DNA of 64,000 bases from Octopus vulgaris (taxonomy: Eukaryota): NCBI GenBank assembly GCA_951406725.2, contig OX597824.1, positions 53,196,001 to 53,260,000 of the forward strand. Direction: 5' to 3'. Below are positions 7,788-62,173 of this stretch, piece by piece (positions within the stretch are counted from its first letter, which is position 1; the number at the start of each line of letters is the position of its first letter). The position numbers were made by a program, and so were the translations under genes. The notes below the pieces were generated by a model. That model was not told where the DNA came from and made no database searches. It worked only from the letters and a program-made list of their open reading frames with translations.

Positions 7788-8069
7788 AAGCAATAATAAA
7801 TCTTTGAACGAGGTATAAACAGTAACTGCACAACGATGTGAGGTATATTTGCCATCTCAATATGGCTAACCACTAAGGGTGGGTGTTACTGTAGCTTGTA
7901 GCCCCAGGAGAACATCTCCTCCAGCTGGCTATAGGCACACTTTCTGTGCCCTATCGGTATTTGCAAAGGGAGGTCATCCTTCCCTCGTCAACCTAAGTGA
8001 TACGCACGGACTGTAGTTTCTGGGTATTGACCCATCATCAGCGCACGACAATCACCGGTTTACGATGAA
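7788..8069 (-). mobile_element. Retrozyme-like HHR repeat, copy 1, part downstream of the Tx1 insertion (reconstructed unit 354 bp)
   Basis: 7788-7916 is directly repeated at 13655-13783 (~4 mismatches); contains an HHR; removing the Tx1 and one TSD gives a 354-bp period. Confidence 0.8.
7997..8055 (-). ncRNA. Type I hammerhead ribozyme (predicted GUC cleavage between 8009 and 8008)
   Basis: Minus: GTGAT TGT CGTGCG CTGATGA TGGGT caat ACCCA GAAA C TACA G TC | CGTGCG T ATCAC; full core, stem II 5 bp, stem I with GU pairs; covaries with the HHR at 39011-39071. Confidence 0.85.
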
Positions 8070-8409
8070 TTTATCTTTATTATGATCAAGTGATCTAACA
8101 TAGAATTGGGACATTACAGGACAAAACAATTACAAAAATGCTATGCGAGTTCGAATGAAATTATAAAAATTACAAAAATAAAATTTTACGTAACTTGAAC
8201 GAAAACTTGGCTTACTTTGCCTTGAAACGAAAACTTGGCTTACTTTTGCCTTTATCACGAGAACTTTTAGTGCGTATGTTTTCTTTTTTTATTATTATTA
8301 CTTTATTTTAAACAGTTATGTACAGTGAAAGGGGATGGGAGGTACCAGTTTCAATTTTGAACCCGGCAGCCTATAAGTCCCAGCAGCTGCTTTTTCCTTT
8401 CCTCGATGA

Positions 8410-11400
8410 TTAAGCTGGATTACTCTCACCCACCTTTCTCATCACATCCTTCCAACGTTCCATATACTCTTTCTGTGGCAGGCTCCTCTTCTCCAACCCC
8501 ATCTTGCTCTTCAGATGATATCCAAAGTATTTTAACAAACCGAGGCCAGAGATAAAGGACCCTTTCACTAGACCTTCCATTCTAGTTCTCCATACACACT
8601 CTTTCAATACTGCCACCGTACAGTAAAAACAAGCCTTACCTTCCTTTGAGAGTCCAGTTGGCGGTATCATCTTAATCATGGATCCAGCCGACAGCTGTAC
8701 ACGTCCCAGATGCGACAACACGTGTTCAACGTAACTTATCAAGCCTGACAGCTCCCGACATTGTACAAAAGCGTGTTGAACGGTTTCATCGTCCAACCCA
8801 CATCTTGGACACGTCGGTGGCACTGACATTCCGTGCCTGGATAACTTCTCGCGAACAGGTAATGCATTCCTATAGCACTGCCAGGTCAGGGATTTTGGGT
8901 AATTATCCAAATACCCCGACCTGAAAGTCTTCTTAAACAGGTTGGAAAGTTGATCCTCATCGAATCCCAGAGCCCTTCCTAGGACTTCGTCATTTTTTCC
9001 CTCTACCAGCCCTTTATAGAACACCGAGGTGGTATTCCCGCTGCCGGCCTTGCCCATCTTGTGGATCGGCCAGAGTGCCTGTCGGCACTCCTTCTGCCCT
9101 GAAGTCAGGTTACATCCTTTAATGAGACCGGGTGTAAATCCCTCCATAGAGGCCGGTCGCGGAAAGAATTCCTCTGCCAGCGAACTCCACACCTTATCAT
9201 CCTCTAGGTAACACCAGAGGTGTCTCAGCCTCAACGCATGCTTGCGCATCATTAGCCAAGGCATCCCCAGTCCACCCTTTAGCGGTTGCTGGCAACACAC
9301 GGAGCGTCTCACAAGAGGCTTTCCTCCTTTCCACAAAAAGCGGAAAAGGAGTCGTTCCAACTTGTTTAACCACGAATCGGGGCAAGGCACGACGGTCAGG
9401 CGGTAGGTGACGACAGAGGCTATAAACATCTGTGTCACCTCCGCCCTTCCTTTCAAGGAAAGATGCCTTCCGGACCACTTCCGTACTATGACATCCACCT
9501 TGCTCGTTACCTCGCTCCAATTCTTCTCCGTCTGGGAGTCTGGACCAAACCAGACTCCGAGGAATTTAACAGGACCATCCGTCCAGTGTCCAACAACACT
9601 GGATGGTATCGGCTTGTTCCTCCAGGTGCCGAGGCGCAAACCGATGGACTTGTCCCTGTTAACTTTTGCCCCTGCCACCGCTTCGTATCTATGGAGAGCA
9701 CCTGCTACCCGAGGTAGCTGTGTTCCGTTGGACACGATGCGGGTGACGTCATCCGCATAGGCAGAAACAGACTTACCGCATCCGATTTCATTAGGGTTGC
9801 CTCCCAGATTCTCTAGCTTCCGCAGCAATGGCTCAAGAGCCAAAACATACAGGAGCGGGGACAAGGGACACCCTTGACGAATTGAACGCTTGATCGAAAA
9901 CGGCTCCGTTAGGTAACCGTTTATCTGGACTGTGGACTTGATGCCGCTGTACATAGCTGAGATCCACCCGCAGAAGCCAGGGCCCAGCCCAGCCGCTTCG
10001 AGGACCGCCGCCAAGTACCGATGGTCTACCCTATCAAACGCTTTACTTTGGTCTAAATGGACCAATGCCCCTCCTTTGCCGTCTAATTTCCCGACCCTAT
10101 CTATAGTGTAGCGGAGAAGGTGAAGATTATCCTGGATCGACCTGCCTGGGATTGCACATGTCTGTGCCTTCACGACAAGTTTCTCCACGACAGCCGTCAG
10201 CCTTTTTGCTAACACCTTGGCCAAAATCTTAAACTCTACATTAAGTAGAGTTATGGGCCTATAATTACTAATACTGTCCCCCTTGCTCGGGTCTTTCTGG
10301 ACAAGCGTCACAACTCCCCGACTCACAGAGCTGGGAATCCTCCCATTCTATTGCCAGTTTGCATAGACGCTTGCCAGTATGTCCCCGAACAAGTCCGGCA
10401 TACAACAATAAAATTCATAGGGCAGACCATCCAACCCCAGCGACTTTTCCCCGGCGCACTCGGCCATAACCCCTCTTACCTCCGCGGGAGAGATCGATCC
10501 TTCACAGCACTCCGCCTCACCTGCCGAGAGCCGAGGCCCACCAGCTAGGAAGTCCTTTAAGGTCTCCCCACGCTCGAGCGGACCACCGCCCCCAAACAGC
10601 CGAGCGAAATGCTGGTGAAGGACCTTCTGCATCTCCTCCTGTCCATAGATCTTGCGGTCCTGCTCGTTAGTTAAGGACATAATACAGGACTTTTTGCCCT
10701 TCTGACTCTCCTCACGACGGGCCCATCCGGCAACGTTAATACCTTCTCGTTTTCCTGCACGTAACTTAGCTCTGACTCTGCACCCCTCATGCTTGGCGTT
10801 GAGGTGACGGTACAATACCGCTCTCGCTGCCAACACTCCGGATGCACAGCCAGATTCCATAGCCTCGTCTAAGTTCTTAACTAATTCGCTCTCTATTCTA
10901 GTCCTATCTAAACTTAGCTGCTTGCTAAATCTAATGGACTCCAAACGGATGGCTCTTTTGAGGTCGAGCCACCATCTATTATTAATGATGGTGTCACATA
11001 ATGCCCTCTGTACTAATTCCTTAATCCGGGTACGGAAAGCTTCACAAGTCAAAATAGACTTGTTCATTTTCCAGTACCCGGGACCTTGTCTATGGCATTT
11101 ATCAACCTGTACCTCACACGTCACAAGTTTGTGATCCGTGTAAGGCACAACAGAGAATTGTGGACAGCTAACACTATTCTTATCTCGTTCCTTAACAAAT
11201 ACTCTATCTATGTACGATCTGCATGAGCCGTCGTTATTACTCCACGTCCACTGTGGAACGTTCGGCTCATCCAGTCGAAAACGGTTTACTAGATTAAAGC
11301 TCGCCAGTAGAGCCTTGAGGCCAGGATTCCCCTTCCTATCGCTCGAGCCTACACCATCCACCCGCGCATCGAGAATGGTGTTGAAATCCCCTACCAAGAC

Positions 11401-11799
11401 TACCGTTTTGGACGTCACTAGAAAGTGCTCCAGTTCCCGAAAAAGACCGGTCTGCCCACGTCCATTAGGAGCGTAGACGGCCACCAACCTGAAGGACTGC
11501 TTACTCACGTGCGTCACATCTAGGACAACCAGCCTACCTTCTGGGTTCAGAAAGACAGTACTTACCTGTAAGTCCAAGTTCTTCCTGAAAAGAACTGCCA
11601 CGCCTGCACCTCCCTCCCGGCTAGGAGAAATAAATTTCTCGTAACCATTGAGAAGTGGTGAGAACGCTTGGGGTCCTTTCATCTTGGACTCGGTAACAAT
11701 AGCTACATCGATTCTATGTGAAATGAGGTCGTCCCAAAAACAAGCCTGTTCCCATTTCGATCCCATTCCACGCACATTTATACAACCTAACTTAATCAT
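8410..11799 (-). pseudogene. Tx1 ORF2 (APE endonuclease + RT + C-terminal CCHC), one in-frame stop at 10348-10350
   Basis: NVRG, VYAPN, LVGDFN, SYIDR, TDHK (APE); YRPITLLN, LDQSKAFD, QGCPLSP, AYADDV (RT); CPRC..ETVQHAFVQC; TAG here vs CAG in copy 2. Confidence 0.92.
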
Positions 11800-11822
11800 C
11801 GAAAAAAAAGAAAATTATTTAC

Positions 11823-13314
11823 TCACGGTTGCGAGAGGGAGCCTGACAGATCCCTTCTGCCTGTCTCCCCCCCCTCGCCGTTGCTGCTGGGCGTTTCACC
11901 GGCGTTGCCACCGGGCTCTGGGTTGGTGTGGCTGCCGGGCTGACGTATAATTTCCCAGTTGTCACCTCCTGGGTGACATCCTTAATGAAGCCGGCTTTTA
12001 CGTGGTCTTGTAAGTTTTTCCTTTCCATCCTTCTTCGCCGACCCTTGCATATCGCCACCCCGCTTCCTTCTCGGTCGCTTTGTAGCCCCTGATCTGCATA
12101 CTTGCTTGCACAAATTTTACTGCTCTCTCGTTCCTTGTGGTGTATGCTATAATTTTTTCATTGGGTTTAAACCCTTTTACAGTTGGTGGGTGGGGTTTGT
12201 TAAAGTGCTGGCCTATAAATGTAGTACCGCCGGGGTGGGATTGGAGAATATTTTTAATTTGTTCGTCTGCGTTGTTTTTTCTTTTGTTACGGGTGGGGAG
12301 TCAGGGGTGATGGATTTTTTCCTTTTGTTCGACACGTTCGTGAATTCCATCTCTTCTTGTATATTTGTTTTCGTTGTATTAATTTCCTCTTCCTTTCCTT
12401 TCTCATTTTGCATTTCGTTCCTGTCTTCCTCCTTTTTGGAGTTCGACCTGTTTTTTTTTACCTCCTTGCTTTCGCCAGTCGTTACTCTGTTCTCCACTTT
12501 GCTGCTTTCTGCGTTCTTCACAGCGTTTTTTTTTGGGGGGGGCATTGCCCGTATTATTTTTCTTTGTTCAAACGGAGCGAACGTGGCCCTTTTGCCCGCA
12601 CTTAAAACATCTGGGCCTGCGTCCTTCCACCGAAAGTCGTATGGAGTGCCCCTCCCCTACGAAGACTCTATCTGGTAGGCTTTCCAGCATCGCATTTTCC
12701 ACCTGGATAATCATCTCCAGCTGCTGGCCTCTCCAGTGTTTTGCTATTTTCCTCTTCATACTCAAAATTGTCAATTTTGATTCAACATTAAAAATGACCG
12801 CTGTTGCCGCCCACATCACGTCGTAGCCCCTTGGTATATCTTCTAGGGTCACCTTTGCTGTTCTGCACCCTAAATATAAGTGTAGCAGTATTATATTCTC
12901 GTTTTTCAACGTTTGCGTCGAAATTTGCCTTGCTTCTTCCGCCGTCTCAAAATGCGCCTCCACTGTAGCGCTTCTTGTACCTCGGTTGACATGACGAACT
13001 TTATTCCATATTGATGCCATACACTTTTCGACCATTTCGTTTTTTACGTCGGTCATTCGTTTTTCTTTTATATTGTACACTTTATAGGTGACCATTTTTT
13101 CCCTTATTGCCTGTATAGTCTCAGGGGGCGGTACCAATCGTGTTTCTTCACCTCTTTTTTGCACAAGCGGTCTGAACATGAATAGTCTTTCCATTGACAC
13201 CTCCATTTCTTTCACTTCGCCACCTACGGCGTCTGAAAAACTGGGTTTTGCCTGTGTTTCCTTTTGTTTAACAGTTGTTGTACCTTCTCCCATCTCGGGA
13301 AAGTCTAATTCCAT
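11823..13314 (-). pseudogene. Tx1 ORF1 (gag-like, zinc knuckle), frameshifted
   Basis: RPRCFKCGQKGHVRSV(C) knuckle; split over ORFs 12568-13326, 12213-12545 and 11819-12058; homologous to 42753-44097. Confidence 0.85.
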
Positions 13315-13565
13315 ATTAGACAACACAAACTTGTCACAAATGACAAGAGAATTTTTTTTTCAAAAATAACCTATACAGGTTAAGAGTTCACACAAAAAAA
13401 AACACAGAGATTTTCTACCCCGAAGGGCGAAAATTACTGGGTCAAAAACAGTTCAACAATTATATTACGTGTAACACAACAAAGTAGACAAACGGAAACG
13501 AACTCACACAACGATTTGCAGCAACAGAAAAATATTTGATATACTCCGAGGAAAAATTCAAAAAA

Positions 13566-13886
13566 CACCGGTTTACGATGAAAGGAGTCCCAATGCAAAT
13601 ACTTATATCCTTTTTCCAGTAACCTTTCGTCACTGATCTTGAAAAAGTGTATACAAGCAATAATAAATCTCTGAACGAGGTATAAACAGTAACTGCACGA
13701 CAATGTGAGGTATATTTGCCATCTAAATATGGCTAACCACTAAGGGTGGGTGTTACTGTAGCTTGTAGCCCCAGGAGAACATCCGATAGGGCACAAAAAC
13801 ACCCACCCTTAGTGGTTAGCCATATTGAGATGGCAAATATACCTCACATTGTCGTGCAGTTACTGTTTATACCTCGTTCAGAGATT

Positions 13887-13890
<4 letters not shown>
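13566..13890 (-). mobile_element. Retrozyme-like repeat copy 1, upstream part: rest of monomer, partial tandem copy and inverted arm
   Basis: 13655-13783 = 7788-7916; 13783-13890 is the reverse complement of 7945-7957 plus ~7795-7887; flanked by (TA)n. Confidence 0.8.
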
Positions 13891-37688: not shown

Positions 37689-37761
<73 letters not shown>

Positions 37762-37767
<6 letters not shown>

Positions 37768-38365
37768 GACACGCTTCCTTCTGTTTCCGTCTACCAAATC
37801 AACTCCCGAGGCTTTGGTCGACCCAAAGCTGTAGTAGAAAACGATGGGAAAAAGTACCACGCAGTGGGACTAAACCCAGAACCATTTGGTTGGTAACCAA
37901 GCTTTCTAAAACAAACCCACGCTTACACCTACATATATATATATATATATACTCTTTTACTCTTTTACTGGCTTCAGTCATGTGACTGTAGCCATGCTGG
38001 ATCACCTCCTTTAGTCGAACAAATCGACCCCAGGACTTATTCTTTGTAAGCCTAGTACTTATTCTATCGGTCTCTTTTGCCGAACCGCTAAGTTACGAGG
38101 ACATAAACATGCTAGCATCGGTTGTCAAGTAATGTTGGGGAGGGGGGACAAACACAGACACACAAACATATACACACACATACATATATATACATATATA
38201 CGACGGGCTTCTTTCAGATTCCGTCCACTAAATCCACTCACAAGGCTTTGGTCGGCCCGAGGCTATAGTAGAAGACACTTGCCCAAAGTGCCATGCAGTG
38301 GGACTGAACCTGGAACCATGTGGTTCGTAAGCAAGCTACTTACCACACAGCCACTCCTACGCCTA
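37762..38365 (-). mobile_element. Two copies (one partial, one complete) of the tRNA/CORE-like SINE
   Basis: Reverse complement of 51665-52075 (ggcgtaggagtggctgtgtggtaagtagcttgc...). Confidence 0.85.
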
Positions 38366-38436
38366 TATATATATGCATATACTTGGAAACGGATGAGTGG
38401 CGTTCAATCATATAATAATATAAATAATATATATGC

Positions 38437-38758: not shown

Positions 38759-38806
<48 letters not shown>

Positions 38807-39082
38807 CAATGATAAATCTCAGAGCGAGTTATAAACAGTAGCGGTAACACAACGTGATGCATATATGCCATTTGAATATGGCTAACCCAAAAGGGTGGAT
38901 GCTACTGTAGTTTGTAGCCCCAGGAGGACACCTCCTCCCGCTGGCTATAGACACACTATCTGTGTCCTGTCAGTATTTGTGAAGGGGAGTCATCCTCCCC
39001 GTCTTCAACACATGATACACACGTACCCGAGTTTCAAGGTGTTTACCTTTCATCAGCGTGTGACAATCATGGTTGTCGACGA
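38807..39082 (-). mobile_element. Retrozyme-like HHR repeat, copy 2 (diverged subfamily; reconstructed unit 353 bp), part downstream of the Tx1
   Basis: 38807-38970 directly repeated at 44422-44585; homologous to 7788-8069 with compensatory changes. Confidence 0.8.
39011..39071 (-). ncRNA. Type I hammerhead ribozyme (predicted GUA cleavage between 39024 and 39023)
   Basis: Minus: CATGAT TGT CACACG CTGATGA AAGGT aaac ACCTT GAAA C TCGG G TA | CGTGTG T ATCATG; perfect stems I and II. Confidence 0.9.
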
Positions 39083-39339
39083 ATTTCTTTATTACGATCA
39101 TAAAATCATTACATAGAAGGACAATACAGGACATACATACAAAAAACAGTTAAGTGGTTCGATTAAAAATTTTCCATAATATATGGATTATTCCTTATAC
39201 AAAATTTGTATTTAAATGGTCCTTTGCATTGACTAATAGAGCATTACAACATTACATAGCTTGAGATCTTACCGATATATTTTAAACCCCGGCAACCTAT
39301 AAGGCCCCGCAGCTTTTCTTTCCTCTCCTCCATCCATAG

Positions 39340-42300
39340 TTAAGCTGGGTTTCTGACACCCACCTTTTTTGCCACTTCCTTCCATCTTTTTTCATACACA
39401 CCTCGTGGAAAGATCTTCTTTTCCAGCCCCATTTTGCTCTTCAGATGATATCTGAAGTAAGTGAGCAAGCCGGGGCCTGAGACAAAGGATCCTATTGCGA
39501 CTCCTTCCATTCTTGTACGCCACATGCATTCTTTTACTACTGCAACCGTGCAGTGAAAACATGCCTCACCTTCCTTCGAGAGTCCAGTTGGCGGTATCAT
39601 CTTAATCATAGACTCAGCCGACAGCTGTACTCGTCCCAGATGCGATAACACGTGTTCTGCGTAACTTATCAAGTCTGAAAACTTCCGACAGTGTACAAAA
39701 GCGTGCTGGACGGTTTCATCGTCCAACCCGCATCTTGGACACGTCGGTGGTACTGAAATTCCGTGCCGCGATAACTTCTCGCGAACAGGTAAAGCATTCC
39801 TATAACACTGCCAGGCCAGGGATCTTTGGAAGTTATCCAAATACCCCGTCCTGAAAGTCTTTTTAAACAGGTTGGTAAGCTGGTCTTCGTCAAACCTCAG
39901 AGCCCCTCCTAGGACGTCGTCGTTCTTTGCCTCTACCAGCCTGCTATAAAATACCGAGGTGGTATTTCCGCAGCCGGCCTTGCCCGCCTTGTGGATCAGC
40001 GTGAGTGCCTGTCGGCACTCCTTTTGCCATAAAGTCAGATTCCGTCTTTTGATGTGACCGGGTTTAAAATTCACTAAGGAAGCCGGTCTCGGGAAAAATT
40101 CCCCTGCCAGCGGACTCCACACCTTATCACCCTCCAGGTGGTGCCAGAGATGCTTCAGCCTCAACGCATGCCTGCGCATCATCAACCAAGGCATTCCTAA
40201 CCCACCCTTTAACGGTTCCTGGCAGCAAACGGAGCGCCTCACAAGTGGCTTTCCTCCCTTCCACAAAAAGCGGAAAAGGATTCGTTCCAACTTGCTAAGC
40301 CATGAATCGGGGCAAGGGACAGCGATCAGGCGGTAAGTGATTACAGATGCAATGAACATCTGTGCCACCTCCGCCCTTCCTTTCAAGGACAGAGACCTTC
40401 CGGAGCAGGTCCGTACTATGGCCTCCACCTTGTCCGTCACCTCACTCCAATTCCTCTCCGTTTGGGAGTCTGACCCAAACCAAACTCCTAGCAACTTAAC
40501 AGGACCATCCGTCCAGTGTCCCACGACACTGGACGATATCGACTTGCTCCTCCAGGTGCCGAGGCGCAAGCCAACCGACTTGTCCTTGTTAACCCTTGCT
40601 CCTGTCACCGCCTCGTATCCTCTGATAGCATCTTCTACACAAGGTAGCTGGGCCTCATTGGACACGATGAGGGTGACATCATCCGCATAAGCAGTAACCG
40701 TCCTCCCACCTCCGATCTCATCCGGGTTACTTCCCAGCCTCTCCAACTTTCGCAGCAATGGCTCGAGAGCCAACACGTACAAAAGTGGTGACAAGGGGCA
40801 CCCTTGACGAACTGAACATTCGATCGAAAACGGTTCCGTTAGGTAACCGTTTATCTGGACGGTGGACTTGATGCCGCTATACATAGCGGAGATCCACCCG
40901 CGAAATTCAGGGCCCAGTCCAGCCGCTTCGAGGACCGTCGCCAGATACTTATGGTCTACCCTATCGAACGCTTTACTTTGGTCTAAATGGACCATTACCC
41001 CGCCCTTGCCGGTTAATTTACCCACCCTATCTAAGGTATAGCGTATAAGGTGAAGATTGTCCTGGATCGACCTGCCTGGAATTGCACATGTCTGTGCTTT
41101 CCCTACAAGTTTCTCCACGACAATCGTCAACCTTTTTGCCAACACCTTGGCCAAAATCTTTAACTCTACATTAAGTAGAGTTATGGGCCTGTAATTACTA
41201 ATGTTATCCCCCTTGCTCGGGTCTTTCTGGATTAGCGTCACCACTCCCCGGCTTACAGAACTGGGAATTCTCCCATTCTGCTGCCAGTTCGCGTAGACGC
41301 CTGCCAATATTCCCCCGAACAAGTCCGGCATACTTTGGTAAAACTCGTAGGGCAGACCATCCAACCCCGGCGACTTCTCCCCGGCGCATCCGGCCAGTAT
41401 CCCCTCTATCTCCGCGGGAGTGATCGCTTCTTCACAGCACTCCACCTCACGCCCCGAGAGCCGCGGTCCGCCGGCTAGGAAGTCCTTTAAGGCCCTCCCC
41501 CGCTCCTGCGTCACACCACCCCCAAACGCGCGGGCGAAATGCTGGTGAAGAAACTTTTGCATCTCCTCCTGTCCATAGATCTTTTGTCCCTGTTCGTCAG
41601 TTAAAGACTTGATTGAAGCTTTGTTACCTCTCTGACTCTCCATTCGACGGGCCCATCCGGCAACGTTAATACCTTCTCGTTTCCCAGCGCGTAGCTTAGC
41701 TCTAACTCTGCAACCTTCGTGTTTGGAGTTAAGGTGACGGTACAATACCGTCCTTGCCTCCATCACTCCGGATACAGAGCCAGCTTCCATTGCCTCGTTT
41801 AGATTCTTAACTAAATCGTCCTCTATCCTAGACCTATCTAACCTTAGCTGATTGCTAAATCTAATGGACTCTGAACGAATGGCTCTTTTGAGGGAGTGCC
41901 ACCATCTATTGTTAATGATGGTGCCACACAATGCCCTCTGTACTAACACCTTAATCCGGGTACGGAAGTCTTCACAATTCAAAATAGACTTGTTCAGCTT
42001 CCAGTACCCGGGTCCCTGTCTATGGCACTTATCTAATTGCACCCTACAAGTCACAAATTTGTGATCCGTGTAAGGCACAATGTGAAACTGTGGACAACTA
42101 AACGTATCCTTATCTCTTTTCCTAACGAATATCCTATCTATATACGATCTGTGTGACCCGTCGTTGTTACTCCACGTCCACTGTGGAACGCTCGGCTCAT
42201 CCAGTCGATAACGGTCCACTAGATCAAAGCTCTCTAGTAGACCCTTGAGGCTAGGGTTCCCCTTCCTATTGGTTGAGCCAACACTGTCGACCCGCGCTTC

Positions 42301-42729
42301 AAGGACAGTGTTAAAGTCCCCTACTAAGACTACCGTTTTCGACATCGCTAAAAAGTGCTCCAGATTCCGAAAAAAACCCGCCTGTCTACACTCATTCGAA
42401 GCGTAGACAGCTACCAACCTGAAGGACTGTTTACTTACGTGGGTCACATCCAGAACGACCAGCCTGCCTTCTGGGTCCAGAAAGACAGTACTTACCTGCA
42501 AGTCCAAGCTCTTCCTGATAAGGACTGCCACGCCTCTTCCTCTTCCTCGGCTAGGAGAAATAAATTTCTCGAAACCATTTAGAAGAGGCGAGAACGCTTG
42601 GGCCCCGTTCATCTTGGACTCGGTTACAATAGCTACGTCCACTCCGTGTGTCGTGAGGTCGTTCAGGAAACAAATTTGTTTCCATTTCGACCCCATTCCA
42701 CGCACATTCACACAACCCAGCTTTGCCAT
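39340..42729 (-). CDS. Tx1 ORF2: APE endonuclease-reverse transcriptase-CCHC, uninterrupted
   Basis: Open 1144-codon frame (39340-42774; first Met aligned with copy 1 at 42729); NVRG/GDFN/YIDR/TDH and KAFD/QGCPLSP/YADD motifs. Confidence 0.92.
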   Translation of the reverse strand: MAKLGCVNVRGMGSKWKQICFLNDLTTHGVDVAIVTESKMNGAQAFSPLLNGFEKFISPSRGRGRGVAVLIRKSLDLQVSTVFLDPEGRLVVLDVTHVSKQSFRLVAVYASNECRQAGFFRNLEHFLAMSKTVVLVGDFNTVLEARVDSVGSTNRKGNPSLKGLLESFDLVDRYRLDEPSVPQWTWSNNDGSHRSYIDRIFVRKRDKDTFSCPQFHIVPYTDHKFVTCRVQLDKCHRQGPGYWKLNKSILNCEDFRTRIKVLVQRALCGTIINNRWWHSLKRAIRSESIRFSNQLRLDRSRIEDDLVKNLNEAMEAGSVSGVMEARTVLYRHLNSKHEGCRVRAKLRAGKREGINVAGWARRMESQRGNKASIKSLTDEQGQKIYGQEEMQKFLHQHFARAFGGGVTQERGRALKDFLAGGPRLSGREVECCEEAITPAEIEGILAGCAGEKSPGLDGLPYEFYQSMPDLFGGILAGVYANWQQNGRIPSSVSRGVVTLIQKDPSKGDNISNYRPITLLNVELKILAKVLAKRLTIVVEKLVGKAQTCAIPGRSIQDNLHLIRYTLDRVGKLTGKGGVMVHLDQSKAFDRVDHKYLATVLEAAGLGPEFRGWISAMYSGIKSTVQINGYLTEPFSIECSVRQGCPLSPLLYVLALEPLLRKLERLGSNPDEIGGGRTVTAYADDVTLIVSNEAQLPCVEDAIRGYEAVTGARVNKDKSVGLRLGTWRSKSISSSVVGHWTDGPVKLLGVWFGSDSQTERNWSEVTDKVEAIVRTCSGRSLSLKGRAEVAQMFIASVITYRLIAVPCPDSWLSKLERILFRFLWKGGKPLVRRSVCCQEPLKGGLGMPWLMMRRHALRLKHLWHHLEGDKVWSPLAGEFFPRPASLVNFKPGHIKRRNLTLWQKECRQALTLIHKAGKAGCGNTTSVFYSRLVEAKNDDVLGGALRFDEDQLTNLFKKTFRTGYLDNFQRSLAWQCYRNALPVREKLSRHGISVPPTCPRCGLDDETVQHAFVHCRKFSDLISYAEHVLSHLGRVQLSAESMIKMIPPTGLSKEGEACFHCTVAVVKECMWRTRMEGVAIGSFVSGPGLLTYFRYHLKSKMGLEKKIFPRGVYEKRWKEVAKKVGVRNPA

Positions 42730-42752
42730 TGTCGGAGAGAGAAAAAATAAAC

Positions 42753-44097
42753 TTACGGTTGGGACAGGGAGCATGACAGTTTAAATCTGCCTGCTTCCCC
42801 TTCTTCCTCCCTTGTGGTCATAGCTGCAGGGGTTATAATAAGTTTGCCCTCCAGTATTTCATTCGTTACATCTCTGATAAGATTATTCTTTAAATGTTCT
42901 TGTAGTGTTTTTTCCTTCCACTCGTCTTCCTTTATTTTTGCAAAGCGAGTGGTTGATTTTGTGTCTGTAGACTTACTGAATAGTTTAAATTTTGAAAATT
43001 TGAAATACTTGTACACCCTATTGTTCTTCTCGTCAAATGCTATAATCTTTTCATTTTTTTTTATCAATTTTTTCAAATCTTGTTTTATGGGGAGGGGTTT
43101 GGCGAACTGTGTTCCAATGAATAAAGTGCCGTGGGGGTAGGGCTGGGGAATTTGTTTTGTATGTATCTCTGCGGTGTTTGCTGATTTTTTCTTTGTTTGG
43201 GGAGGGGAGTCCAGGGTGTTATCTTTTTTCTTTTGTGTGTCACCTGTGTATATTCCATCTGTTCATTTTCATCTTCCGTTTCGGTTCCTTTCCTTGTCGC
43301 AGTCTTGGGTTCTTTTTCCGCCTTTTCTTTTTCAGTGTTTGAAGCACTTTGAGGAGGGGCTTCGTTGATTTTCTTTTTTTTTATGCAGTTTGAGCGGACG
43401 TGACCCTTTTCGCCACATTTGAAGCACCTAGGTCTGCGCCCCTCCACTGACACTCTCATTGAAGTTCCCTCCTCATTAAATACCCTATCGGGTAAGTTTT
43501 CTAGTATCTTATTTTCTGCTTGAACGAGGAGTTCTAGCGCTTGTCCTTTCCAGTGCACCTCCTCTTTCCTTCTCATCTGCAGAATTGAAACTACATCATA
43601 CCCTCTTGGTATATCCTCTACATGTAGTTTGGCTGTTCTTTTTCCCATATACGAAGGTAGCAACATGATATCCTCAGTTTTCAAGGTCATTGATGACACC
43701 TCTCTTGCCACATCAGCCGAGTCGAAATGTGCTTCAACGGTAGCGCTGCAAGCACCTCGAACAACGTGGCGAATTTTGTTCCACACCGGCGACAAGCACT
43801 TTTCTACTATCTCGTTCTTGACATCCATTATTTTTTTTCTTTGTTGCTATAAACTTTGTATACAACTGTCTTTGCCTGTATTTCCTGTACCTTCGCTTGC
43901 GGCGGTACCAGTTTAATTTCATTGCCTTCCGTTTTTACCAAGTTCCGGTATTCGAATAACTGTTCAATCTTGAATTCTACATCCGTTACGGTTCCGCCCA
44001 CTGCGGCCGAAAAAGACTGTTTTTTGACTTCGGTATCCTTTTGTTCACCTTTTCCCATCACGGGAAAGTCACTCCTCGACGCCAAGTCGAACTCCAT
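42753..44097 (-). pseudogene. Tx1 ORF1 (zinc knuckle), frameshifted
   Basis: RPRCFKCGEKGHVRSNC; split into ORFs 43828-44097, 43085-43828 and 42753-43076, with at least one shift at a homopolymer run. Confidence 0.85.
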
Positions 44098-44324
44098 TTC
44101 TCAAATTATGAGAGCAAATGTTTCAAAAAAATTACCTCGAAGGTAATGACAATGTTTAAACACAGAATTTTCAGCCCCGTAGGGCGAAAATTACTGTTAC
44201 ACAACGGACAACTGTTCAATTCACGAGTAACACAAACAACGACGAACAAAAAATACGAACTCACTCAACAAAAAGGCAGCAAAATTCTCAAAACGCAGAT
44301 GAAAGAGGGGTCCCTAGACGAATA

Positions 44325-44753
44325 ACAATCATGGTTGTCGACGAGAATTCAGATTCCTTCACAAATACATATACTTTTTCCAGTGTCGATATGACACTGA
44401 TATTGAAAAAGTGAAATCAAGCAATGATAAATCTCAGAGCGAGTTATAAACAGTAGCGGTAACACAACGTGATGCATATATGCCATTTGAATATGGCTAA
44501 CCCAAAAGGGTGGATGCTACTGTAGTTTGTAGCCCCAGGAGGACACCTCCTCCCGCTGGCTATAGACACACTATCTGTGTCCTGTGTGTATCATGTGTTG
44601 AAGACGGGGAGGATGACGCCCCTTCACAAATACTGACAGGACACAGATAGTGTGTCTATAGCCAGCGGGAGGAGGTGTCCTCCTGGGGCTACAAACTACA
44701 GTAGCATCCACCCTTTTGGGTTAGCCATATTCAAATGGCATATATGCATCACG

Positions 44754-44754
<1 letters not shown>
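44325..44754 (-). mobile_element. Retrozyme-like repeat copy 2, upstream part with partial tandem copy and 171-bp inverted arm
   Basis: 44422-44585 = 38807-38970; 44584-44754 = reverse complement of 38852-39022; (TA)n flank. Confidence 0.85.
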
Positions 44755-45149: not shown

Positions 45150-45223
45150 AGGCATATGGCCTAGTGGTTAAGAGCGCGGGCTACTAGCCCCAGGATTCCG
45201 ACTTCGATTCCGGGCAGTGGCCG

Positions 45224-45225
<2 letters not shown>
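45150..45225 (+). mobile_element. tRNA-like SINE head followed by (AAT)n
   Basis: tggcctagtggttaagagcgcgggc (A box) ... cttcgattccggg (B box). Confidence 0.5.
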
Positions 45226-45280
<55 letters not shown>

Positions 45281-45281
<1 letters not shown>

Positions 45282-48200
45282 TCCTATAACATTCCTTCCT
45301 GATTTTCTCTTTCATGCTTGCATGCTGAATACCAGAGCCTTCATTTATCCCTAAATATTTGTATGTTTGTTCTTGCTCAAGCTCTCTTATGACTGTGTCA
45401 ACATCTAACACGACTGAATTTGTGGTCTTCACTTTCCCTTTCTGGAAAGTGGCCTTGGCACACTTCTCAAGTCCAAACTCCATCCCGATGTCATCGCTGA
45501 ATGCTTTCACGGTGCGTAATTGGCCTTCAAGTTCATTATTGTCTTTACCATAAAGTTTTAAGTCATCCATATAAAATAGATGGCTTATTTTTTTATTGGC
45601 AATTTTATACCCATACCCTGTTCTGTTTAATTCACTTGTAAGGGGTATTAGGGCTATGCAGAATATTAAAGGTGAAAGTGAGTCACCTTGAAAAATTCCA
45701 CAGTTGATGTTTATATTTTCTGAGGCAAGTACTCCATTAGAGTGGTATAATTGGAGATTCGTATTCCACAACGACATATTGTGCTTCAGGAAGTTTGAAA
45801 TCACAGGGGAAATTTTGAAGATGTCCAGCGATCTCAAGATCCATGGATGCGGTATACTGTCGAAGGCCTTTTTATAGTCAATCCATGCGGTGCTGAGATT
45901 TCTGCGCTTGTTGTGACAGTTCTCAAGGATCATACGATTGATTAGCAGTTGATCTTTGCATCCGTAAGAGCCTCGGCGGCACCCTTTTTGTTCAATGGGG
46001 AAAATATCGTTCTTCTCCATGAATGCATATGTTTTCTCCGCCAGGATAGATGTTAGGATTTTATACGTGGTGGATAGACAGGTTATAGGCCGATAGTTTT
46101 TTGGAAGGTTGGTTTCGTTATTCTTTGGGAGTAGGTAAGTAATGCCACTTGCTAACCATTCAGGTGTTTTCTTTGGGTCTCTCATAATTCCATTGAGCAG
46201 CTGAACTAGCTTACCGTGTGCGCACGGGAGCGATGCGAGCCAGAAATTCGGCACCCTATCTTTACCGGGGGATTACCAATTATGGGCCTTCGTGAGTGCC
46301 TTTCTTAGGTCTGCTATTGTGATGTCTTCCCATGCTTGTAAATTTTGGTAGGATCCTTCAGTTTGTATAATCCAGTCTGCATTTATGTTGTACGTCTTCT
46401 TGTCACTCCAAATCCTTTTCAAAAAGTTTTGAACTTCTTCCATGGGAGGGGGGTCTTTAACGGTTACTTTCTCCTTCCCTATTTCTCTGTAGAATTTTTT
46501 GGCATTGGATGTGAACAGCTTATTTTGCTTGTAAAACTTGTTTCGCTTCTCAAATCTTCGTATTCTTTGGGCTTTTGCTTGGACTTTTTGTTTCAGCGTT
46601 TCTTTTATTGATATCAGTTCTTCTCTTGGTGAGGATCCAAATTTTCTCTTCATCTTTCTTCCTGTTCTGGATCTTACATCATTTCCACATATTAGTTCAT
46701 TTAATATTGATATTTCCCCTCTCATAAATTCAATCTCTGTTTCAATTTTACTTCTCCAGGTTTGATTTCTTCCCAGGTTTTGTTTTCTTTGTTTTTTCGG
46801 GGGCATACAGCTGGTTTCAATTGCCCTAGCAGAAGCGTAAATAATTTCATTTAACTCAGTAAAATCAGGTTTTAATTCTCGTATTATTTCATTTGTTACA
46901 TAGTTGCCAATTTGGATTTGTTTTTTATTTTGGTTTGTATTTGAGAGTTTATGAAGCGGTTCTCTATCATTCATACTTGTATGTCTTACAACTTCAAGCG
47001 TATTCAGGATTTTCTGCCTCATTTCTGCCATAGACTCTCTGTGTTCTTCAGCAAATGCGAGATCTTCAGTTACTGTTGTTTTTTCGTTTTCCTGGCTATC
47101 TTTAACTGGTACAATAGAATTTCTTGTATCTTCAGGCCTTTGCGTACTTTGGTCAGATGGCAGTCTTTCAATTAAGCCTCGTGGCGGGCTATACTGTTCA
47201 TCTGATTCTTCATTTCCTTTGTGTCTTATATTTATGTCATTTTCTGTTGCGTGCTTGATCGCGCTTATTTCACTGTCTGTGAGTCTGTTATTTCTAAAGG
47301 AAGGAATGTTATAGGAGAGTTCGTGCAGTCCTGAAATCTGAACTAAATGCACGTAACAAGGTGTTAGCTATAAATTCCTTAGCAGTTCCAGTTGTTACTT
47401 ATAGCTACAATGTGTTGAACTGGAATATGAGTGAAGTAAAGAATATAGATAGAAAAATACGCAAGCTGCTGGGTTGTAATAGGATGCACCACCCAAAGGC
47501 AGACGTAGATCGCCTTTACCTTCCCAGAGCCCAAGGAGGTCGAGGCCTGATCCAATTTGAACTAGCTTACAAAACAACCACAATTGGACTGGCCAAATAT
47601 CTCGAAATATCGAATGACTGGATGCTAAAGCTCGTGGAAAATCACGAGAGACGAAAGAAGCTTCATTCTATCATCAAGGAAAGCAAAAAATTTGCTATTG
47701 ATCTCGTGCAGGATACCCAAACTGAACAACCCGAGGGAAGTACGGCAACTATTGTTGCAAAGAAGGTGAAAATGATGGCAATGAAAAAAGCGCACGAGCA
47801 ATTGGCTGATAGGTGGGAAGAGAAACCTCTGCACGGCAAATATGTGACCCGCAGCAAACAAGCTGATGTTGACCAGAAGCAAACCCATCAGTGGCTGCGG
47901 AGCTCAGGGCTAAAAGCAGAGAGCGAAGGTTTCATCCTGGCTGCTCAAGACCAAAGCCTATTAACCCGGAACTACCAGGCCAATGTGATGAACAATGGAG
48001 CAGACCCAAAATGCCGATTCTGCAACGACATGATTGAAACAGTGGACCACCTAATCTCTGGATGTAAAGTATTAGCACCAGTGGAGTATAAATTAAGACA
48101 TGACAGAGTTGGCCAATATCTCCACTGGCTAATAAGTCGGCATTACAATATCAAAACTGCCGACAAGTGGTATAATCACCACCCTGAGGCTGTAACTGAA

Positions 48201-48756
48201 GGAGAAAATGTAACCATTCTGTGGGACTTTCCAGTACATACAGACCGAACCACCAAGGCCAATAAACCAGATATTGTTGTGAAAGACCAAAACAATAAAG
48301 TTTGCTTATTGATCGGCATGAGCATCCCCTGTGATCATAATATCTCAGCGAAAGAGTTTGACAAGCTCAGAAAATATAAAGACCTACTCATTGAAATTGA
48401 GAAAATGTGGCATCTCAAGGCGGTTACAATACCAGTGATCGTAGGAGCACTAGGAATGATCAAGAAGGGAGCCGAAAATTATATGAGAATGATCCCTGGC
48501 TTACCATCCCTGCAAGAAGTGCAAACAATTGTCTTAACTGGTACATCACACGTATTGAGAAGAGCATTGTCGATGTGAGAACTGTTGCTGCTCATGTATT
48601 TTAATTTAACTTTAAAAAAAAAAAATTAAAAAAAAATGAACGAACTACTGAGTTTGGCTTAATGGCCTACCAATATACACTATGAGTTTCTTTGCCCTAG
48701 GAGTCGGGAAGACACTCGGCAAGAAATGGAAGAAAATTTGAAAGAAGAAAAAAAAA

Positions 48757-49157: not shown

Positions 49158-51097
49158 TCGAAAAGTACCTTAGGAATGAGAACCCAGGTTCGAAATTTCC
49201 CCCAAGACACCTGATTAAGGCTAGAGGGTATATCAGCCGAAGCGTTGTGTTAACGACAAACAAGATGAGGACAAATATCCATCAAATGTAAATAGTGTAA
49301 ATAATGTACATAATTCCTCATCTCTTAAATATAGAACAGGTTCATCCGATTTTCGACCACCATTCATCAGGTGTTGTGTGTGTCTCTTACAGGGAAAAGT
49401 ACTACCAGTATGTCACCACACCATTTACCTTTTCAAGGGGATCTCTGCTTGGCTTAATTATAAGATTTTGATCAAGTAACCGTTATACATGCGTGAAAGT
49501 TGAATTTAGAAAGGTTAAAATAAAACATATATTTAAAATAAAATTTTAAAAAGTAAAAAATTAAGAATTAAAAGCATAAATAAAAATAATAAATTAATTA
49601 ATTATAAATTAAAAATTAAGAATTGAAACATTAATAATTTAAATTAAAATATGAAATTTTTAAAACTTTGAATTACTAAAGATTAAAAAATAGAGAATTA
49701 AAGAATTAAAAGTATATAAAAAATGAATTAAATAAATTAACAAATGCAACAGCTAAGTGCTTTCTAGCAATATATAGGATTTAAAAGAGCAGTCCACCAA
49801 CAATCAACTAGATGGCTCGAAAAAGTAGTAAGCCCTATACCAGCGGCAACAGAAGGTGTGCGCTCCATAAAGGAGAAAGGTAATGTTTGCGTTTCTTACC
49901 GTGATATTGATTCATCTGATATTTCAAATATGAATGTGCATTAAGTGCTTTCTAAATACACCAATATCCATGTTGTGGATACATTAACATCTCGAAGATC
50001 TATGAGGATTCTAGTAAGGTACAGAAAAGCCGTGGGGCTTTGAACCCTAAGCTGTTAAAGTATTAGGTCTTTACTCTAGATGGAAAGAATGAGACCATCG
50101 ATACTATGAAGTGGCATCCAGTTCTAGGGTTGATATAGCTTTCAATCATACAGTAAGACACTAGATCCACCAGGAACTTCCATTTGTGTGTACGTGTGTG
50201 TATGTGCGCGCCCGTGTGTGTGCGCGTGTGGATGTGCATGTGTGTGTGTGTGTGTGTGTGTGTGAATACGTGTGTATGTTTATCACTGCATATCGTGTAT
50301 TCGCTTTAGGGAGTAGAACCTCAATTCCTTTAGTCACTCCCAGTAGCTCATCTATTGCATTGAGGCAATCTGTTTGGTTTAAAAGCGTTATATTGCCCTG
50401 CCTTTAGTTTGATGTTATCTGATGATCATAATTGGGAACAGTAGCTGAAGCTCTTGATGTAATAGTTATGCAACGAGATGTGCTCAACGTAATTAATATT
50501 GAGGTTGAGATTATCTTAATGAAAGGAAGGTTACATTGTCGCTTGGAATTTCTACGTCAACTCCACGGTAAATTTAGATACTTTTACCCACACGATTTTC
50601 ACTGAGAAAAAAATTACTCAGATCTTAACCACGGATCAAGTACCCTGGCTTCCAAATGTGCGGCAAACCCCTTATTATTGTTCGAACCCTCCTCCTCATT
50701 GGAATTCTTTCTTTTTTCTTTGTTGAATGAATTACAGTGCCCTCCTAATATGCCACAAAGCCTTTTTTTTGGGTCCGGAAAACGGGATACGGTGGGGTGG
50801 AAAACTCGGAAATATCACACACTCCCAACATTTTACAGAAATACGTTTTCCAGTGTGTGGATTACATGGTTCGTCATTAAATATATAGAGAATTTGAATC
50901 AATATGTTAACATTTATATTGTGTGTATTTCATGCTGAAAATATTTTTCTAAAGTCATAGTGTATGCATATATATATATATATATATATATATGCATACA
51001 CTATGACTTTAGAAAAATATTTTCAGCATATATATATATGTATGTATGTATTAATATATAAATGTATATATATATATGTATGTATTAATATATATAT

Positions 51098-51269
51098 AGG
51101 CGCAGGAGTGGATGTGTGGTAAGTAGCTTGCTTACCAACCACATGGTTCCGGGTTCAGTCCCACTGCGTGGCATCTTGGGCAAGTGTCTTCCGCTATAGC
51201 CTCGGGCTGACCAATGCCTTGTGAGTGGATTTGGTAGACGGAAACTGAAAGAATCCTGTCGTATATATG

Positions 51270-51335
<66 letters not shown>

Positions 51336-51590
51336 TGTGTGTGTGTGTGTATGTGTGTGTATATGTTTGTGTGTCTGTGTTTGTCCCCCTAGCATTGCTT
51401 GACAACCGATGCTGGTGTGTTTACGTCCCCGTCACTTAGCGGTTCGGCAAAAAGAGACCGATAGAATAAGTACTGGGCTTACAAAGAATAAGTCCCGGGG
51501 TCGATTTGCTCCACTAAAGGCGGTGCTCCAGCATGGCCGCAGTCAAATGACTGAAACAAAGTAAAAGAGTAAAAGAGAGTAAAAGAGTAT
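51098..51590 (+). mobile_element. tRNA/CORE-like SINE with internal (TA)/(TG) tract
   Basis: ggcgcaggagtggatgtgtggtaagtagcttgc..ccgggttcagtccc..cttgggcaagt; tail (gtaaaaga)n. Confidence 0.85.
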
Positions 51591-51664
51591 ATGTATATAT
51601 ATATGTGTATTTATATGTATATATATATATATTCATATATTTATATGTATATATATGTATATAT

Positions 51665-52080
51665 AGGCGCAGGAGTGGCTGTGTGGTAAGTAGCTTGCTA
51701 ACCAGCCACATGGTTCCGGGTTCAGTCCCACTGCGTGGCATCTTGGGCAAGTGTCTTCTGCTATAGCCCCGGGCCGACCAATGCCTTGTGAGTGGATTTG
51801 GTAGACGGAAACTGAAAGAAGCCTGTCGTATATATATGTATATATATATGTATGTGTGTGTGTGTTTGTGTGTCTGTGTTTGTCCCCCTAACATCGCCTG
51901 ACAACCGATGCTGGTGTGTTTACGTCCCCGTCACCTAGCGGTTCGGCAAAAGAGACCGATAGAATAAGTACTGGGCTTACAAAGAATAAGTTCCGGGGTC
52001 GATTTCCTCGACTAAAGGCGGTGCTCCAGCATGGCCGCAGTCAAATGACTGAAACAAGTAAAAGAGTAAAGAGTAAAGAG
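51665..52080 (+). mobile_element. Second tandem copy of the same SINE
   Basis: Near-identical to 51098-51590. Confidence 0.85.
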
Positions 52081-59478: not shown

Positions 59479-60325
59479 TACTGGTGGGTTGTGATATGAT
59501 GTGTTGTGTAGTATGGTGTAGTGTAGTGTGGTGTGATGGTGTTGGGAGGTGGGAGAGGCGAGAGTGGGGAAAGCACGGGTGGGGTGTGAGTTAGGCTGAG
59601 GGTTGGGGTAGAGGTGGGGTATGTAGGTAGGCAGAGGGTGGGTGTAGATGTGGGGTATGTGGGTAGGCAGAGGGCGGGGGTAGAGGTGGGGTATGTGGGA
59701 GAGGGTTTGAGGGATGGGATAGAGTGGGATGGGAAGGATAGGGAAGGTGAGGTGGGGATTTGTAGTGGTGGGGTGGGCTTATGGGGGAGGGTTGACGATG
59801 GGGGAAGGGGAAGGTGGGTATGAGAGAGAAAGAGAGTAAGAGAGAAGAGAAAAAGAGTGTAGGGTAAAGAGAAGTAGGAATGAAGAGAAGTAGGAGTCAG
59901 AGCATGAAAGGAGAGGTGGGTGAGAGGAAATAGGAGGGAGGGGGAGAGGGGCAAGGGGAGAGAGGCAAGAGAAGGAAGCTAGATGAAGAGGGGAGGAGAG
60001 TTGAGTCCAAATTGCGTAAAAGAGCGAAGAGAGAAGATTAATCCCTGTTCACGGCGCAAACGGGAGTCCGGATGGCCTATGTGCAAGGACCATCCGAACA
60101 CGGACAGGTGTTGCAAAGAGTGACCGGTAGAGCAGAAATGGCGTGAGACCGGGGTGTCATTGCCGAGGCGGATGTCTCGGAGGAGTTCCGCGAACCGGTC
60201 AGCCAAGCGGCGTCCCGTTTTTCCGATGTACAGAGGAATGGCAGAGAGAGCAGGAGATGCAATAGATGAAGTGCAGATGAAAGATTCGGTGATGTGATAG
60301 GGTCGATGATGGGTGTCGGTGAGGA
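59478..60325 (-). mobile_element. Penelope-like 3' fragment (GIY-YIG + 3' UTR)
   Basis: LYIGKTGRRLADRFAELLRDIRL..PVSRHF..RLRREQGLIFSL; highly similar to 63630-63960. Confidence 0.85.
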
Positions 60326-60863
60326 GGTAAATCCAGCATGTGTCTCATTACTTATACATTTAAAATGTTTAAAATTCACTGCGTAAGCGCAGTCTTTTTT
60401 GTCGGCAGTAAAAATATAGCGGTAAATTCTTCGAACGAATCTACCAGAAATCATTATACATAATTAATAATATCAGGGTAATAAAGATTTTAGAAATTTT
60501 TACTACCAGTGGCCTTGCGTAGAGAAAAATTAGTCAATAGACTATATGTTATTCATATAAAATACAGTGTACATTAAAACACATTAAGAGGAGTCCATCA
60601 TAGAATCCTTTGCGCGAGAAAGAGCAGTTAAAGTCCAAACCACTAATTAGGGAATAAATTCTCGAAGGGAATGAAAAATAAAAACATTTACCATCTAATT
60701 CCGGACCATGGTTTCTGACATATTTTAGTAAATAAAAATTTATTTACCAGGCGAAGTCTTCATTAACAGAGCGTAAACACACCAGCATCGAGTGTCAAGC
60801 GATGGTGGGGTGACAAACAGACACACACATACATATATGTATATATATATATATATATATAAA

Positions 60864-60935
<72 letters not shown>

Positions 60936-60980
60936 TATACATATATATATATATATGTATATATCCATATATATATATAT

Positions 60981-61944: not shown

Positions 61945-62132
61945 ATAATTTCCTTCATAAATTCATAATTTCCTTCTCCATTACACTTTTTATAATATTT
62001 TTGATAAGGTTCGTTTTTTCAAGAACCGAAACATGTAAAATTCATAAGAAAATTAAAATTTATCTAATATAGTGGCGTTTTCAAACTTCTTTTTTACAAA
62101 TATATACCCACTCGTATACGATCTACTCTTAT

Positions 62133-62170
<38 letters not shown>

Positions 62171-62173
<3 letters not shown>

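What the first reader, a model, noticed from the sequence alone, without database searches (positions are those of the whole stretch)
39011..39110. Tx1 3' ends lack a poly(A) tail and run straight into an intact sense-strand hammerhead: possible ribozyme-defined ends or co-mobilised composite element
Seen: both elements end GATC(A/G)TAATAAAGA(T)AAA and continue directly into the TSD. The HHR core remains complete downstream, with its cleavage site ~60 nt past the element end. Each whole cassette has PLE-like partial-tandem plus inverted termini in TA-rich microsatellite DNA. Established: R2 and some other non-LTR elements use HDV-like ribozymes to release themselves from host co-transcripts. 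Inference: read-through Tx1 RNA could be cut by host HHRs at one or both ends, giving a defined RNA whose 3' end carries target-matching sequence. Alternatively, retrozyme+Tx1 may move as one unit, possibly through a circular RNA.
Basis: inference. Interest (0 to 1): 0.7.

Follow-up and report, generated by a model that had tools for sequence, protein, structure and literature searches.

The report
LINE end set by hairpin, not ribozyme
These jumping genes do lack a poly(A) tail and sit just upstream of a predicted self-cutting RNA, but sister copies with no ribozyme behind them end the same way, so the end is likely set by the element's own terminal hairpin, and the ribozyme repeat is likely a landing site whose promoter the element borrows.

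Summary
Observation confirmed: both LINEs end AATAAA+5-6 nt without poly(A) and run through the TSD into a complete type I hammerhead, predicted cut 59-61 nt downstream. The ribozyme belongs to a ~352-nt Penelope-like/retrozyme repeat. The proposed mechanisms mostly fail. (1) The same tail-less end occurs without a hammerhead: in a 95%-identical sister at +1 of U2 genes, in off-target copies and in a SINE-like family; all share a terminal hairpin that buries AATAAA. (2) U2-inserted copies carry a fossil 14-nt retrozyme TSD at their 5' end, and host and U2 share a motif at -57 to -61, so the RNA likely starts at the host's +1, not at a ribozyme cut. (3) 59 of 60 copies are at the target, but LINE and host distances are uncorrelated within subfamilies, filled hosts interleave with empty ones, and tandem and truncated copies show independent insertion. 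Left open: up to 8 of 60 aberrant loci (2-3 suggestive) may be Penelope-copied composites, and one LINE sub-lineage tracks one host allele. The scan reported this targeting before at other loci of this genome. RNA ends untested.

The parts
39083..44324 (-). LINE W2 (subfamily A1), 5.24 kb; the 5' boundary is uncertain by a few bases
39340..42729 (-). ORF2, 1129 aa, open: APE endonuclease, RT, zf-RVT
43085..43846 (-). largest open piece of the broken ORF1, with CCHC knuckle
39085..39118 (-). 3'-terminal hairpin that pairs the AATAAA; ends 2 nt before the element end
   Evidence: (z -3.3)
39063..39082 (-). downstream TSD (20 nt), includes the distal 5' strand of hammerhead stem I
44325..44344 (-). 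upstream TSD; inferred host +1 at 44342
39006..39075 (-). type I hammerhead with extended stem I and 2-bp stem III; predicted cut 39024/39023
38806..39062 (-). 3' part of the ~352-nt host unit, ending at (TA)n
44345..44591 (-). upstream host: partial tandem copy plus promoter-side part; U2-like motif ATCAGT at 44401-44396 (-59)
44584..44754 (+). inverted host arm; its inner end lies 1 nt from the predicted hammerhead cut
8070..13565 (-). LINE W1 (family B), ORF2 broken by a stop at 10348-10350, ORF1 broken
8074..8104 (-). 3'-terminal hairpin of W1
   Evidence: z -2.8
8053..8069 (-). downstream TSD of W1 (17 nt; upstream copy 13566-13582)
7788..8052 (-). host subfamily B 3' part with hammerhead (core 8041-8035, predicted cut 8009/8008)
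13583..13890 (-). upstream host, partial tandem and inverted arm (13798-13890) of W1

Best explanation
This APE-type LINE inserts at one fixed site of a pre-existing hammerhead repeat, likely the repeat's snRNA-type transcription start, and its poly(A)-less DNA end is likely fixed by a 3'-terminal hairpin bound by its own protein rather than by ribozyme cleavage. Shown in sequence: fixed target, independent insertion, the same end with and without a downstream hammerhead, the shared hairpin, the U2-like motif at -57 to -61 and the fossil host TSD at the 5' end of U2 copies. Inferred: the host promoter makes an RNA that starts at +1 inside the upstream TSD; because AATAAA is paired in the hairpin and lies only 5-6 nt from the end, the RNA probably runs on into target sequence; ORF2p binds the hairpin and starts cDNA at a fixed register, so neither a tail nor host sequence is copied. 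The hammerhead serves the host's own Penelope-type cycle; it survives because the TSD duplicates stem I, and it may trim some read-through RNA without being needed.
For: 60 copies: 53 run into the 352-nt host family, 2 into a second hammerhead repeat, 4 into TSD plus another LINE 5' end, 1 off-target. No A-run of 5 or more in 60 of 60 rows (59 pattern copies plus near-match L119) nor in the remaining copy. Same end without ribozyme: 5 copies at U2 +1 (L230 is 95% identical to W1 over 5.5 kb); off-target L082 (13-nt TSD) and L237 (15-nt TSD); 25 of 30 examined loci of a 907-match terminal motif have no host behind them and 0 of 30 have poly(A). Hairpin: z -1.5 to -4.1 in 6 of 6 copies, same fold with unrelated inner stems, inner stem 3.3 vs 2.8 bp shuffled, 0/500 (copies related). 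5' end: 3 of 3 full-length U2 copies have the U2 TSD followed by a 14-mer matching the retrozyme TSD of L234/L235 at 13 of 14; ATYAGY at -55 to -62 in 40 of 41 host loci and 28 of 30 U2 loci. Independence: Mantel A1 rho 0.11 p 0.12 (n 19), A2 rho -0.06 p 0.68 (n 29), LINE distance 2-3% against host 10-20%; 20 filled hosts interleave with 40 empty ones; 7 5'-truncated copies keep upstream host; 6 filled loci have an arm crossing an empty site; at least 264 and 136 exact empty sites. Precedent: stem-loop recognition by ORF2p (PMC4176376, abstract); read-through 3' ends in R1 (PMC2718515, section 15).
Against: No RNA end was observed, so read-through, promoter use and hairpin binding are inference. 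No off-target copy carries downstream host sequence (0 of 2 same-family copies), whereas R1 sometimes does, so read-through itself has no fossil. One LINE clade (support 98/92) sits in one host allele in 5 of 6 independent loci against 0 of 12 others (Fisher p 7e-4, post hoc). L109 carries a 72-108 nt upstream tract of that allele, longer than an RNA starting at +1 could supply. 8 of 60 copies lack a normal upstream host. Across subfamilies the correlation is positive (rho 0.66, p 0.001), driven by the A1/A2 split. The hairpin is weak (-5 to -9 kcal/mol) and less stable in A2 (z -1.5, -2.0).
Confidence: 0.7

Rival explanations
1. The host hammerhead routinely cuts the read-through LINE RNA 59-61 nt past the end, and this cut RNA, whose tail pairs with the target, is the working template.
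For: The hammerhead is complete after insertion and covaries. Three inverted host arms (W2, L106, L123) end at the same base next to the predicted cut, a weak post hoc hint of cleavage of host RNA. Lineage-allele matching fits tail-target pairing.
Against: Same end in U2, off-target and SINE-like copies with no ribozyme. None of the 55 hammerhead-followed copies is a transduction stopping at the cut. Short-helix-III hammerheads can need dimers (PMC7229834, passages), and most filled loci have a single downstream core. The formal arm-end tally showed no enrichment (3 of 117, contaminated by self-hits).
Confidence: 0.12
2. The RNA is cleaved and polyadenylated by the normal machinery 10-30 nt after AATAAA, inside the TSD; the target-matching stub anneals and the tail is skipped in cDNA synthesis.
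For: AATAAA is kept across all families and the SINE; the spacing rule (own knowledge) places the cut inside the TSD; GT-rich sequence follows.
Against: The hexamer is paired in the predicted hairpin; off-target copies carry neither stub nor tail. This rival differs from the best reading only in where the RNA stops.
Confidence: 0.14
3. Host plus LINE move mainly as one composite copied by Penelope machinery, possibly from a circular RNA.
For: C7:109.53 Mb holds two head-to-head LINE-plus-host arms, 0.4% apart against 1.1-2.2% in their clade, with the 307/353 end pair of empty inverted hosts. C2:109.084 Mb holds a ~210-nt LINE tail plus host 3' half between (TA)n runs. L067 joins an inverted arm to LINE position 4228.
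Against: No within-subfamily tree correlation, interleaving with empty hosts, tandem and truncated LINEs with upstream host, arms crossing empty sites, 43 of 60 copies full-length at the 5' junction while host arms are under 1 kb. Microhomology deletions are common here (L111) and can produce the orphan forms. Occasional co-mobilisation I put at about 0.35.
Confidence: 0.04

Closest known systems
Target-specific Tx1-clade LINEs: Tx1L in Tx1D, Tx1-Mar in Mariner-N4_AMi, Keno in U2 (PMC4494074, passages; PMC4640811, passages)
   Same: APE-RT LINE with sequence-specific insertion into another repeat or into U2 genes; tandem stacking at the regenerated site.
   Different: Target is a hammerhead-bearing Penelope-like RNA repeat, at its likely +1; a 95%-identical sister uses U2 +1. 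I did not compare this site with the Keno site.
R1 of Drosophila (PMC2718515, passages and section 15)
   Same: Uniform 3' junctions ascribed to read-through target sequence; 14-bp TSD; flanking target sequence on the RNA 5' end seen as fossils.
   Different: R1 targets 28S rDNA, and its off-target copies sometimes carry downstream target sequence; none did here.
R2 with HDV-like ribozyme (PMC3774820, passages)
   Same: Dependence on a host transcript; upstream host sequence on the RNA gives uniform 5' junctions.
   Different: R2's ribozyme is its own and defines the 5' end; here the ribozyme is the host's, lies downstream, and is dispensable for the end.
Stringent LINEs with a 3' stem-loop, ZfL2-1/2 (PMC4176376, abstract) and partner SINEs
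   Same: Conserved 3'-terminal hairpin shared with a SINE-like family.
   Different: Different clade; here no terminal repeat or tail follows the hairpin; binding untested.
Animal non-LTR retrozymes / non-autonomous Penelope-like elements (PMC7229834, passages; 10.64898/2026.07.22.740005, first fifth; PMC8557442, passages)
   Same: 150-450-nt tandem units with a type I hammerhead; partial tandem, inverted copy, tail at one end, (TA)n insertion.
   Different: Carries a U2-like promoter motif and is the dedicated target of LINEs; neither was in the passages I read.

Membership tests
Tx1 clade LINE | ORF2 with APE endonuclease, RT and C-terminal zinc finger; ORF1 with CCHC knuckle | tested here: met
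   (best solved relatives are L1-type endonucleases)
Tx1 clade LINE | RT groups with named Tx1 elements rather than L1 proper | tested here: inconclusive
Tx1 clade LINE | sequence-specific target with TSD | tested here: met
   59 of 60 at target; TSD 14-17 nt in A2, 18-20 nt in A1
Type I hammerhead ribozyme | CUGANGA/GAAA/UH core with three stems, covarying | tested here: met
   no Rfam match
Type I hammerhead ribozyme | self-cleavage | not testable with these tools
   only a weak hint from arm ends
Non-LTR retrozyme (host) | non-coding tandem units of 150-450 nt, hammerhead in consecutive units | tested here: met
   352-nt spacing, arrays up to 7 listed units
Non-LTR retrozyme (host) | linear and circular monomer RNA | not testable with these tools
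   contigs only
Non-autonomous Penelope-like element (host) | partial tandem, inverted 5' copy, tail at one end, microsatellite target | tested here: met
   ends at unit positions 306-310 or 351-355, mostly abutting (TA)n; inverted arms common
Non-autonomous Penelope-like element (host) | autonomous RT-GIY-YIG partner with matching pLTR | not tested
   no search made
R2-like ribozyme-released LINE | a ribozyme is required for and defines an end of the template RNA | tested here: not met
   same 3' end without ribozyme; 5' fossil at +1; genomic evidence only
Composite co-mobilised element | congruent LINE and host histories; filled hosts form clades | tested here: not met
   one clade-allele association remains

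The most novel reading that the evidence does not exclude
The LINE's RNA carries host-derived target sequence at both ends (from +1 at the 5' end, by read-through to a hammerhead-trimmed 3' end) and uses it to choose among allelic targets by base pairing, so target preference is inherited from the donor locus and can switch between retrozyme subfamilies and U2 almost without protein change; now and then Penelope machinery copies the LINE-bearing unit whole.
Probability: 0.2. Interest if true: 0.78.

Novelty: new variant of a known kind. Interest (0 to 1): 0.45.

Why it matters
It gives a natural series in which near-identical APE LINEs use different targets (several retrozyme subfamilies, U2 +1, random sites) with one poly(A)-less end. 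That makes two open questions testable: how such LINEs fix their 3' junction without a tail, and whether RNA flanks or the endonuclease decide the target. It also points to an snRNA-type promoter driving an animal retrozyme. The striking version in the finding (ribozyme-defined LINE ends, a circular composite) is not borne out as the normal route.

Tried and rejected
RNA: no RNA holder listed on record. Contigs of guessed-RNA runs (5 runs) cover the LINE but cannot show ends; no listed loose end was a poly(A) at the element end, three showed 30-48 nt of flank beyond it, one ended in five A's; 158 and 10 loose ends were not shown, and passive or DNA origin is possible, so I use none of it. Rfam: nothing at gathering level, only microsatellite noise at E<=5. 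One search used a mis-registered structure and is discarded in favour. The arm-end tally was contaminated by self-hits and showed no enrichment at +1 or at the cut (3 of 117 each). TSD constancy rejected as a test. Upstream-TSD overwrite by the donor allele: 5 possible cases (L096, L102, L104, L106, L109), but private variants are shared by both TSDs elsewhere (L070, L092, L107), so it is not general. ARAGORN found no tRNA in 10 of 10 SINE-like loci. The R1Bm 3'-end paper was not held. Literature searches showed no paper on a LINE targeting a hammerhead repeat; the Octopus vulgaris repeat paper PMC13282606 has no hit for hammerhead, retrozyme or ribozyme in its main text (supplements not read). 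Subscription papers and Repbase entries were not searchable.

Full report
Setting. The window is G000:C11:53196001-53260000 of a 2.8-Gb animal genome; earlier scan notes call it octopus-like, which I did not test. Two minus-strand cassettes, W2 (38806-44754) and W1 (7788-13890), each hold an APE-RT-zf LINE inside a short repeat. W2's ORF2 is open, W1's is broken.

Observation. Confirmed with small corrections. W2 ends AATAAAGAAAT at 39083, W1 ends AATAAAGATAAA at 8070; TSDs are 20 and 17 nt; the predicted cuts lie 59 and 61 nt further on. The TSD contains the distal 5' strand of stem I, so the downstream hammerhead stays whole and no upstream one is left. Over 43 distinct copies the structure is 93% paired, 9 of 19 pairs change on both sides, and the core pair C3-G8 becomes U3-A8 in 10 copies (related copies inflate such counts). 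Rfam does not find it.

The host. It is a 352-nt unit with at least 264 and 136 exact empty sites for two alleles, counting arms and tandem units. Empty copies have the same partial tandems, inverted arms, two fixed 3' ends about 46 nt apart and (TA)n flanks. This matches the Penelope-like layout (PMC8557442, passages) and animal retrozymes (PMC7229834, passages; 10.64898/2026.07.22.740005, first 10,000 of 40,000 characters).

Test of co-mobilisation. A pattern made of LINE sequence only gave 60 copies; 59 were fetched and one is W2. Downstream, 53 run into this host family, 2 into a second hammerhead repeat at the same position, 4 into TSD plus another LINE, 1 is off-target. Upstream, 43 are full-length at the target, 7 are 5'-truncated with host kept, 1 is off-target, 1 lay beyond the fetched stretch, 8 lack a normal upstream host (my sorting). 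Upstream and downstream host parts agree at 87-100% in 43 of 44 rows that aligned, 17 of 61 gave no alignment, and L117 is a chimera. For 48 loci with both parts (tandem, off-target, second-family, L113 and short fragments left out), distances correlate overall (rho 0.66) only through the A1/A2 split; within A1 rho is 0.11 (p 0.12) and within A2 -0.06 (p 0.68), with LINEs 2-3% apart in hosts 10-20% apart (two host rows include flank). Twenty filled hosts interleave with 40 empty ones, one identical to an empty copy. Six filled loci have an arm that crosses an empty target. So the LINE inserts on its own into existing hosts. Exceptions: a head-to-head pair at C7:109.53 Mb, 0.4% apart, with host-type outer ends; a ~210-nt LINE tail plus host half between (TA)n runs; and L067. 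These fit Penelope-type copying of a composite RNA, but L111 shows that microhomology deletion gives similar forms.

Test of a ribozyme-defined 3' end. No copy has poly(A) and none carries a host tail stopping at the cut. The same end appears where no hammerhead follows. A sister 95% identical to W1 sits at +1 of U2 genes in 5 of the 8 matches. Off-target L082 and L237 have their own 13- and 15-nt TSDs. Of 11 family-B ends, 6 run into a host, 1 into TSD plus a LINE, 3 into other sequence after a target-like stretch, 1 is off-target. A looser terminal motif gives 907 matches against 5 controls; of the first 30 loci, 5 have the host behind them, the rest are other LINE relatives and a ~200-nt SINE-like family at unrelated sites, and none has poly(A). 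What they share is a hairpin from TCTATG to AATAAAGA that pairs the hexamer and ends a few bases before the terminus, with unrelated but pairing inner stems. A protein-bound 3' stem-loop is known for stringent LINEs (PMC4176376, abstract only), and R1 has uniform 3' junctions ascribed to read-through target sequence (PMC2718515, section 15 and passages).

Test of a ribozyme-defined 5' end. Earlier scan notes on other loci of this genome suggested that the site is a transcription start; I took that as a lead and tested it. ATYAGY lies at -55 to -62 in 40 of 41 host loci and 28 of 30 U2 loci, the two misses being U2 genes with the LINE in front. Three of three full-length U2 copies read U2 promoter, 14-nt U2 TSD, then a 14-mer that matches the retrozyme TSD of L234/L235 at 13 of 14 bases, then the LINE. 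This lineage moved from retrozyme to U2 on an RNA that began at the host's +1. That is the R2/R1 logic of host sequence on the 5' end (PMC3774820, passages), but without a ribozyme.

Loose ends against the simple picture. One A1 clade (98/92) occupies one host allele in 5 of 6 independent loci against 0 of 12 (p 7e-4, post hoc), although those hosts are ordinary members of the allele. Its sixth member, L109, sits in another allele but carries 72-108 nt of upstream sequence of the clade's allele. This fits target choice by RNA-DNA pairing, or a transcript from an upstream unit, or ectopic conversion; endonuclease preference is not excluded.

Mechanism and verdict. Most likely (0.7): host promoter gives an RNA from +1; it reads past the buried AATAAA; ORF2p binds the hairpin, nicks at or 2-3 nt before +1 of another copy and starts cDNA at a fixed register. 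The hammerhead is a bystander that may trim some RNA (routine and needed: 0.12). Polyadenylation inside the TSD remains possible (0.14). Composite movement as the main route is unlikely (0.04), as a rare event plausible (about 0.35). RNA data could not decide. Target-specific Tx1 LINEs in other repeats and in U2 are known (PMC4494074, PMC4640811; passages); my ten searches showed no report of a hammerhead repeat as target, but Repbase and subscription papers were out of reach and supplements were not read. New variant of a known kind; interest 0.45.

Noticed in passing
L247, L250, L265, L269, L270 (G000:C1); window-independent: A ~200-nt SINE-like family, the bulk of 907 matches, shares the LINE's terminal hairpin and AATAAAGAAAT end, has 13-20-nt TSDs and no poly(A): a likely passenger of these LINEs.
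   Followed up: partly
L114 (C24:29.10 Mb), L116 (C27:38.97 Mb): A second, unrelated hammerhead repeat is hit by subfamily A2 at the same position; L114 has ATCAGT at about -58.
   Followed up: partly
L063, L076, L093, L103, L118 and others: Host subfamilies with a U3-A8 core pair in place of C3-G8; others have U4C.
   Followed up: partly
L109 (C20:29.655-29.662 Mb): 72-108 nt of upstream host of another allele directly before the LINE 5' end.
   Followed up: yes
L211, L215 (C1:68.356 Mb, C9:20.048 Mb): Family-B ends run into a target-like stretch and then a T-rich sequence that looks like the 5' end of a further, shorter element.
   Followed up: no
L256, L262, L266: A relative 92-95% identical to W2 with the same end sits at non-host sites.
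   Followed up: partly
window 45184-48578: A different LINE in an inverted arrangement (RT on minus, C-terminal part on plus), interrupted by an (AAT)n run, next to cassette W2.
   Followed up: no
window 37736-38396, 51011-52070, 17015-17269: Copies of an abundant SINE-like repeat in both orientations.
   Followed up: no
window 59991-63954 and 60977-61950: 243-nt inverted repeats 3.5 kb apart enclosing broken ORFs and a 484-nt tandem duplication; possibly a DNA transposon.
   Followed up: no
window 189-547 and 1243-1525: A ~1-kb near-identical duplication built around TA microsatellites.
   Followed up: no
L181-L210: U2 genes fall into at least three upstream-sequence classes that share only the ATCAGT motif; several hold a short match to host positions 249-311 nearby.
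   Followed up: no
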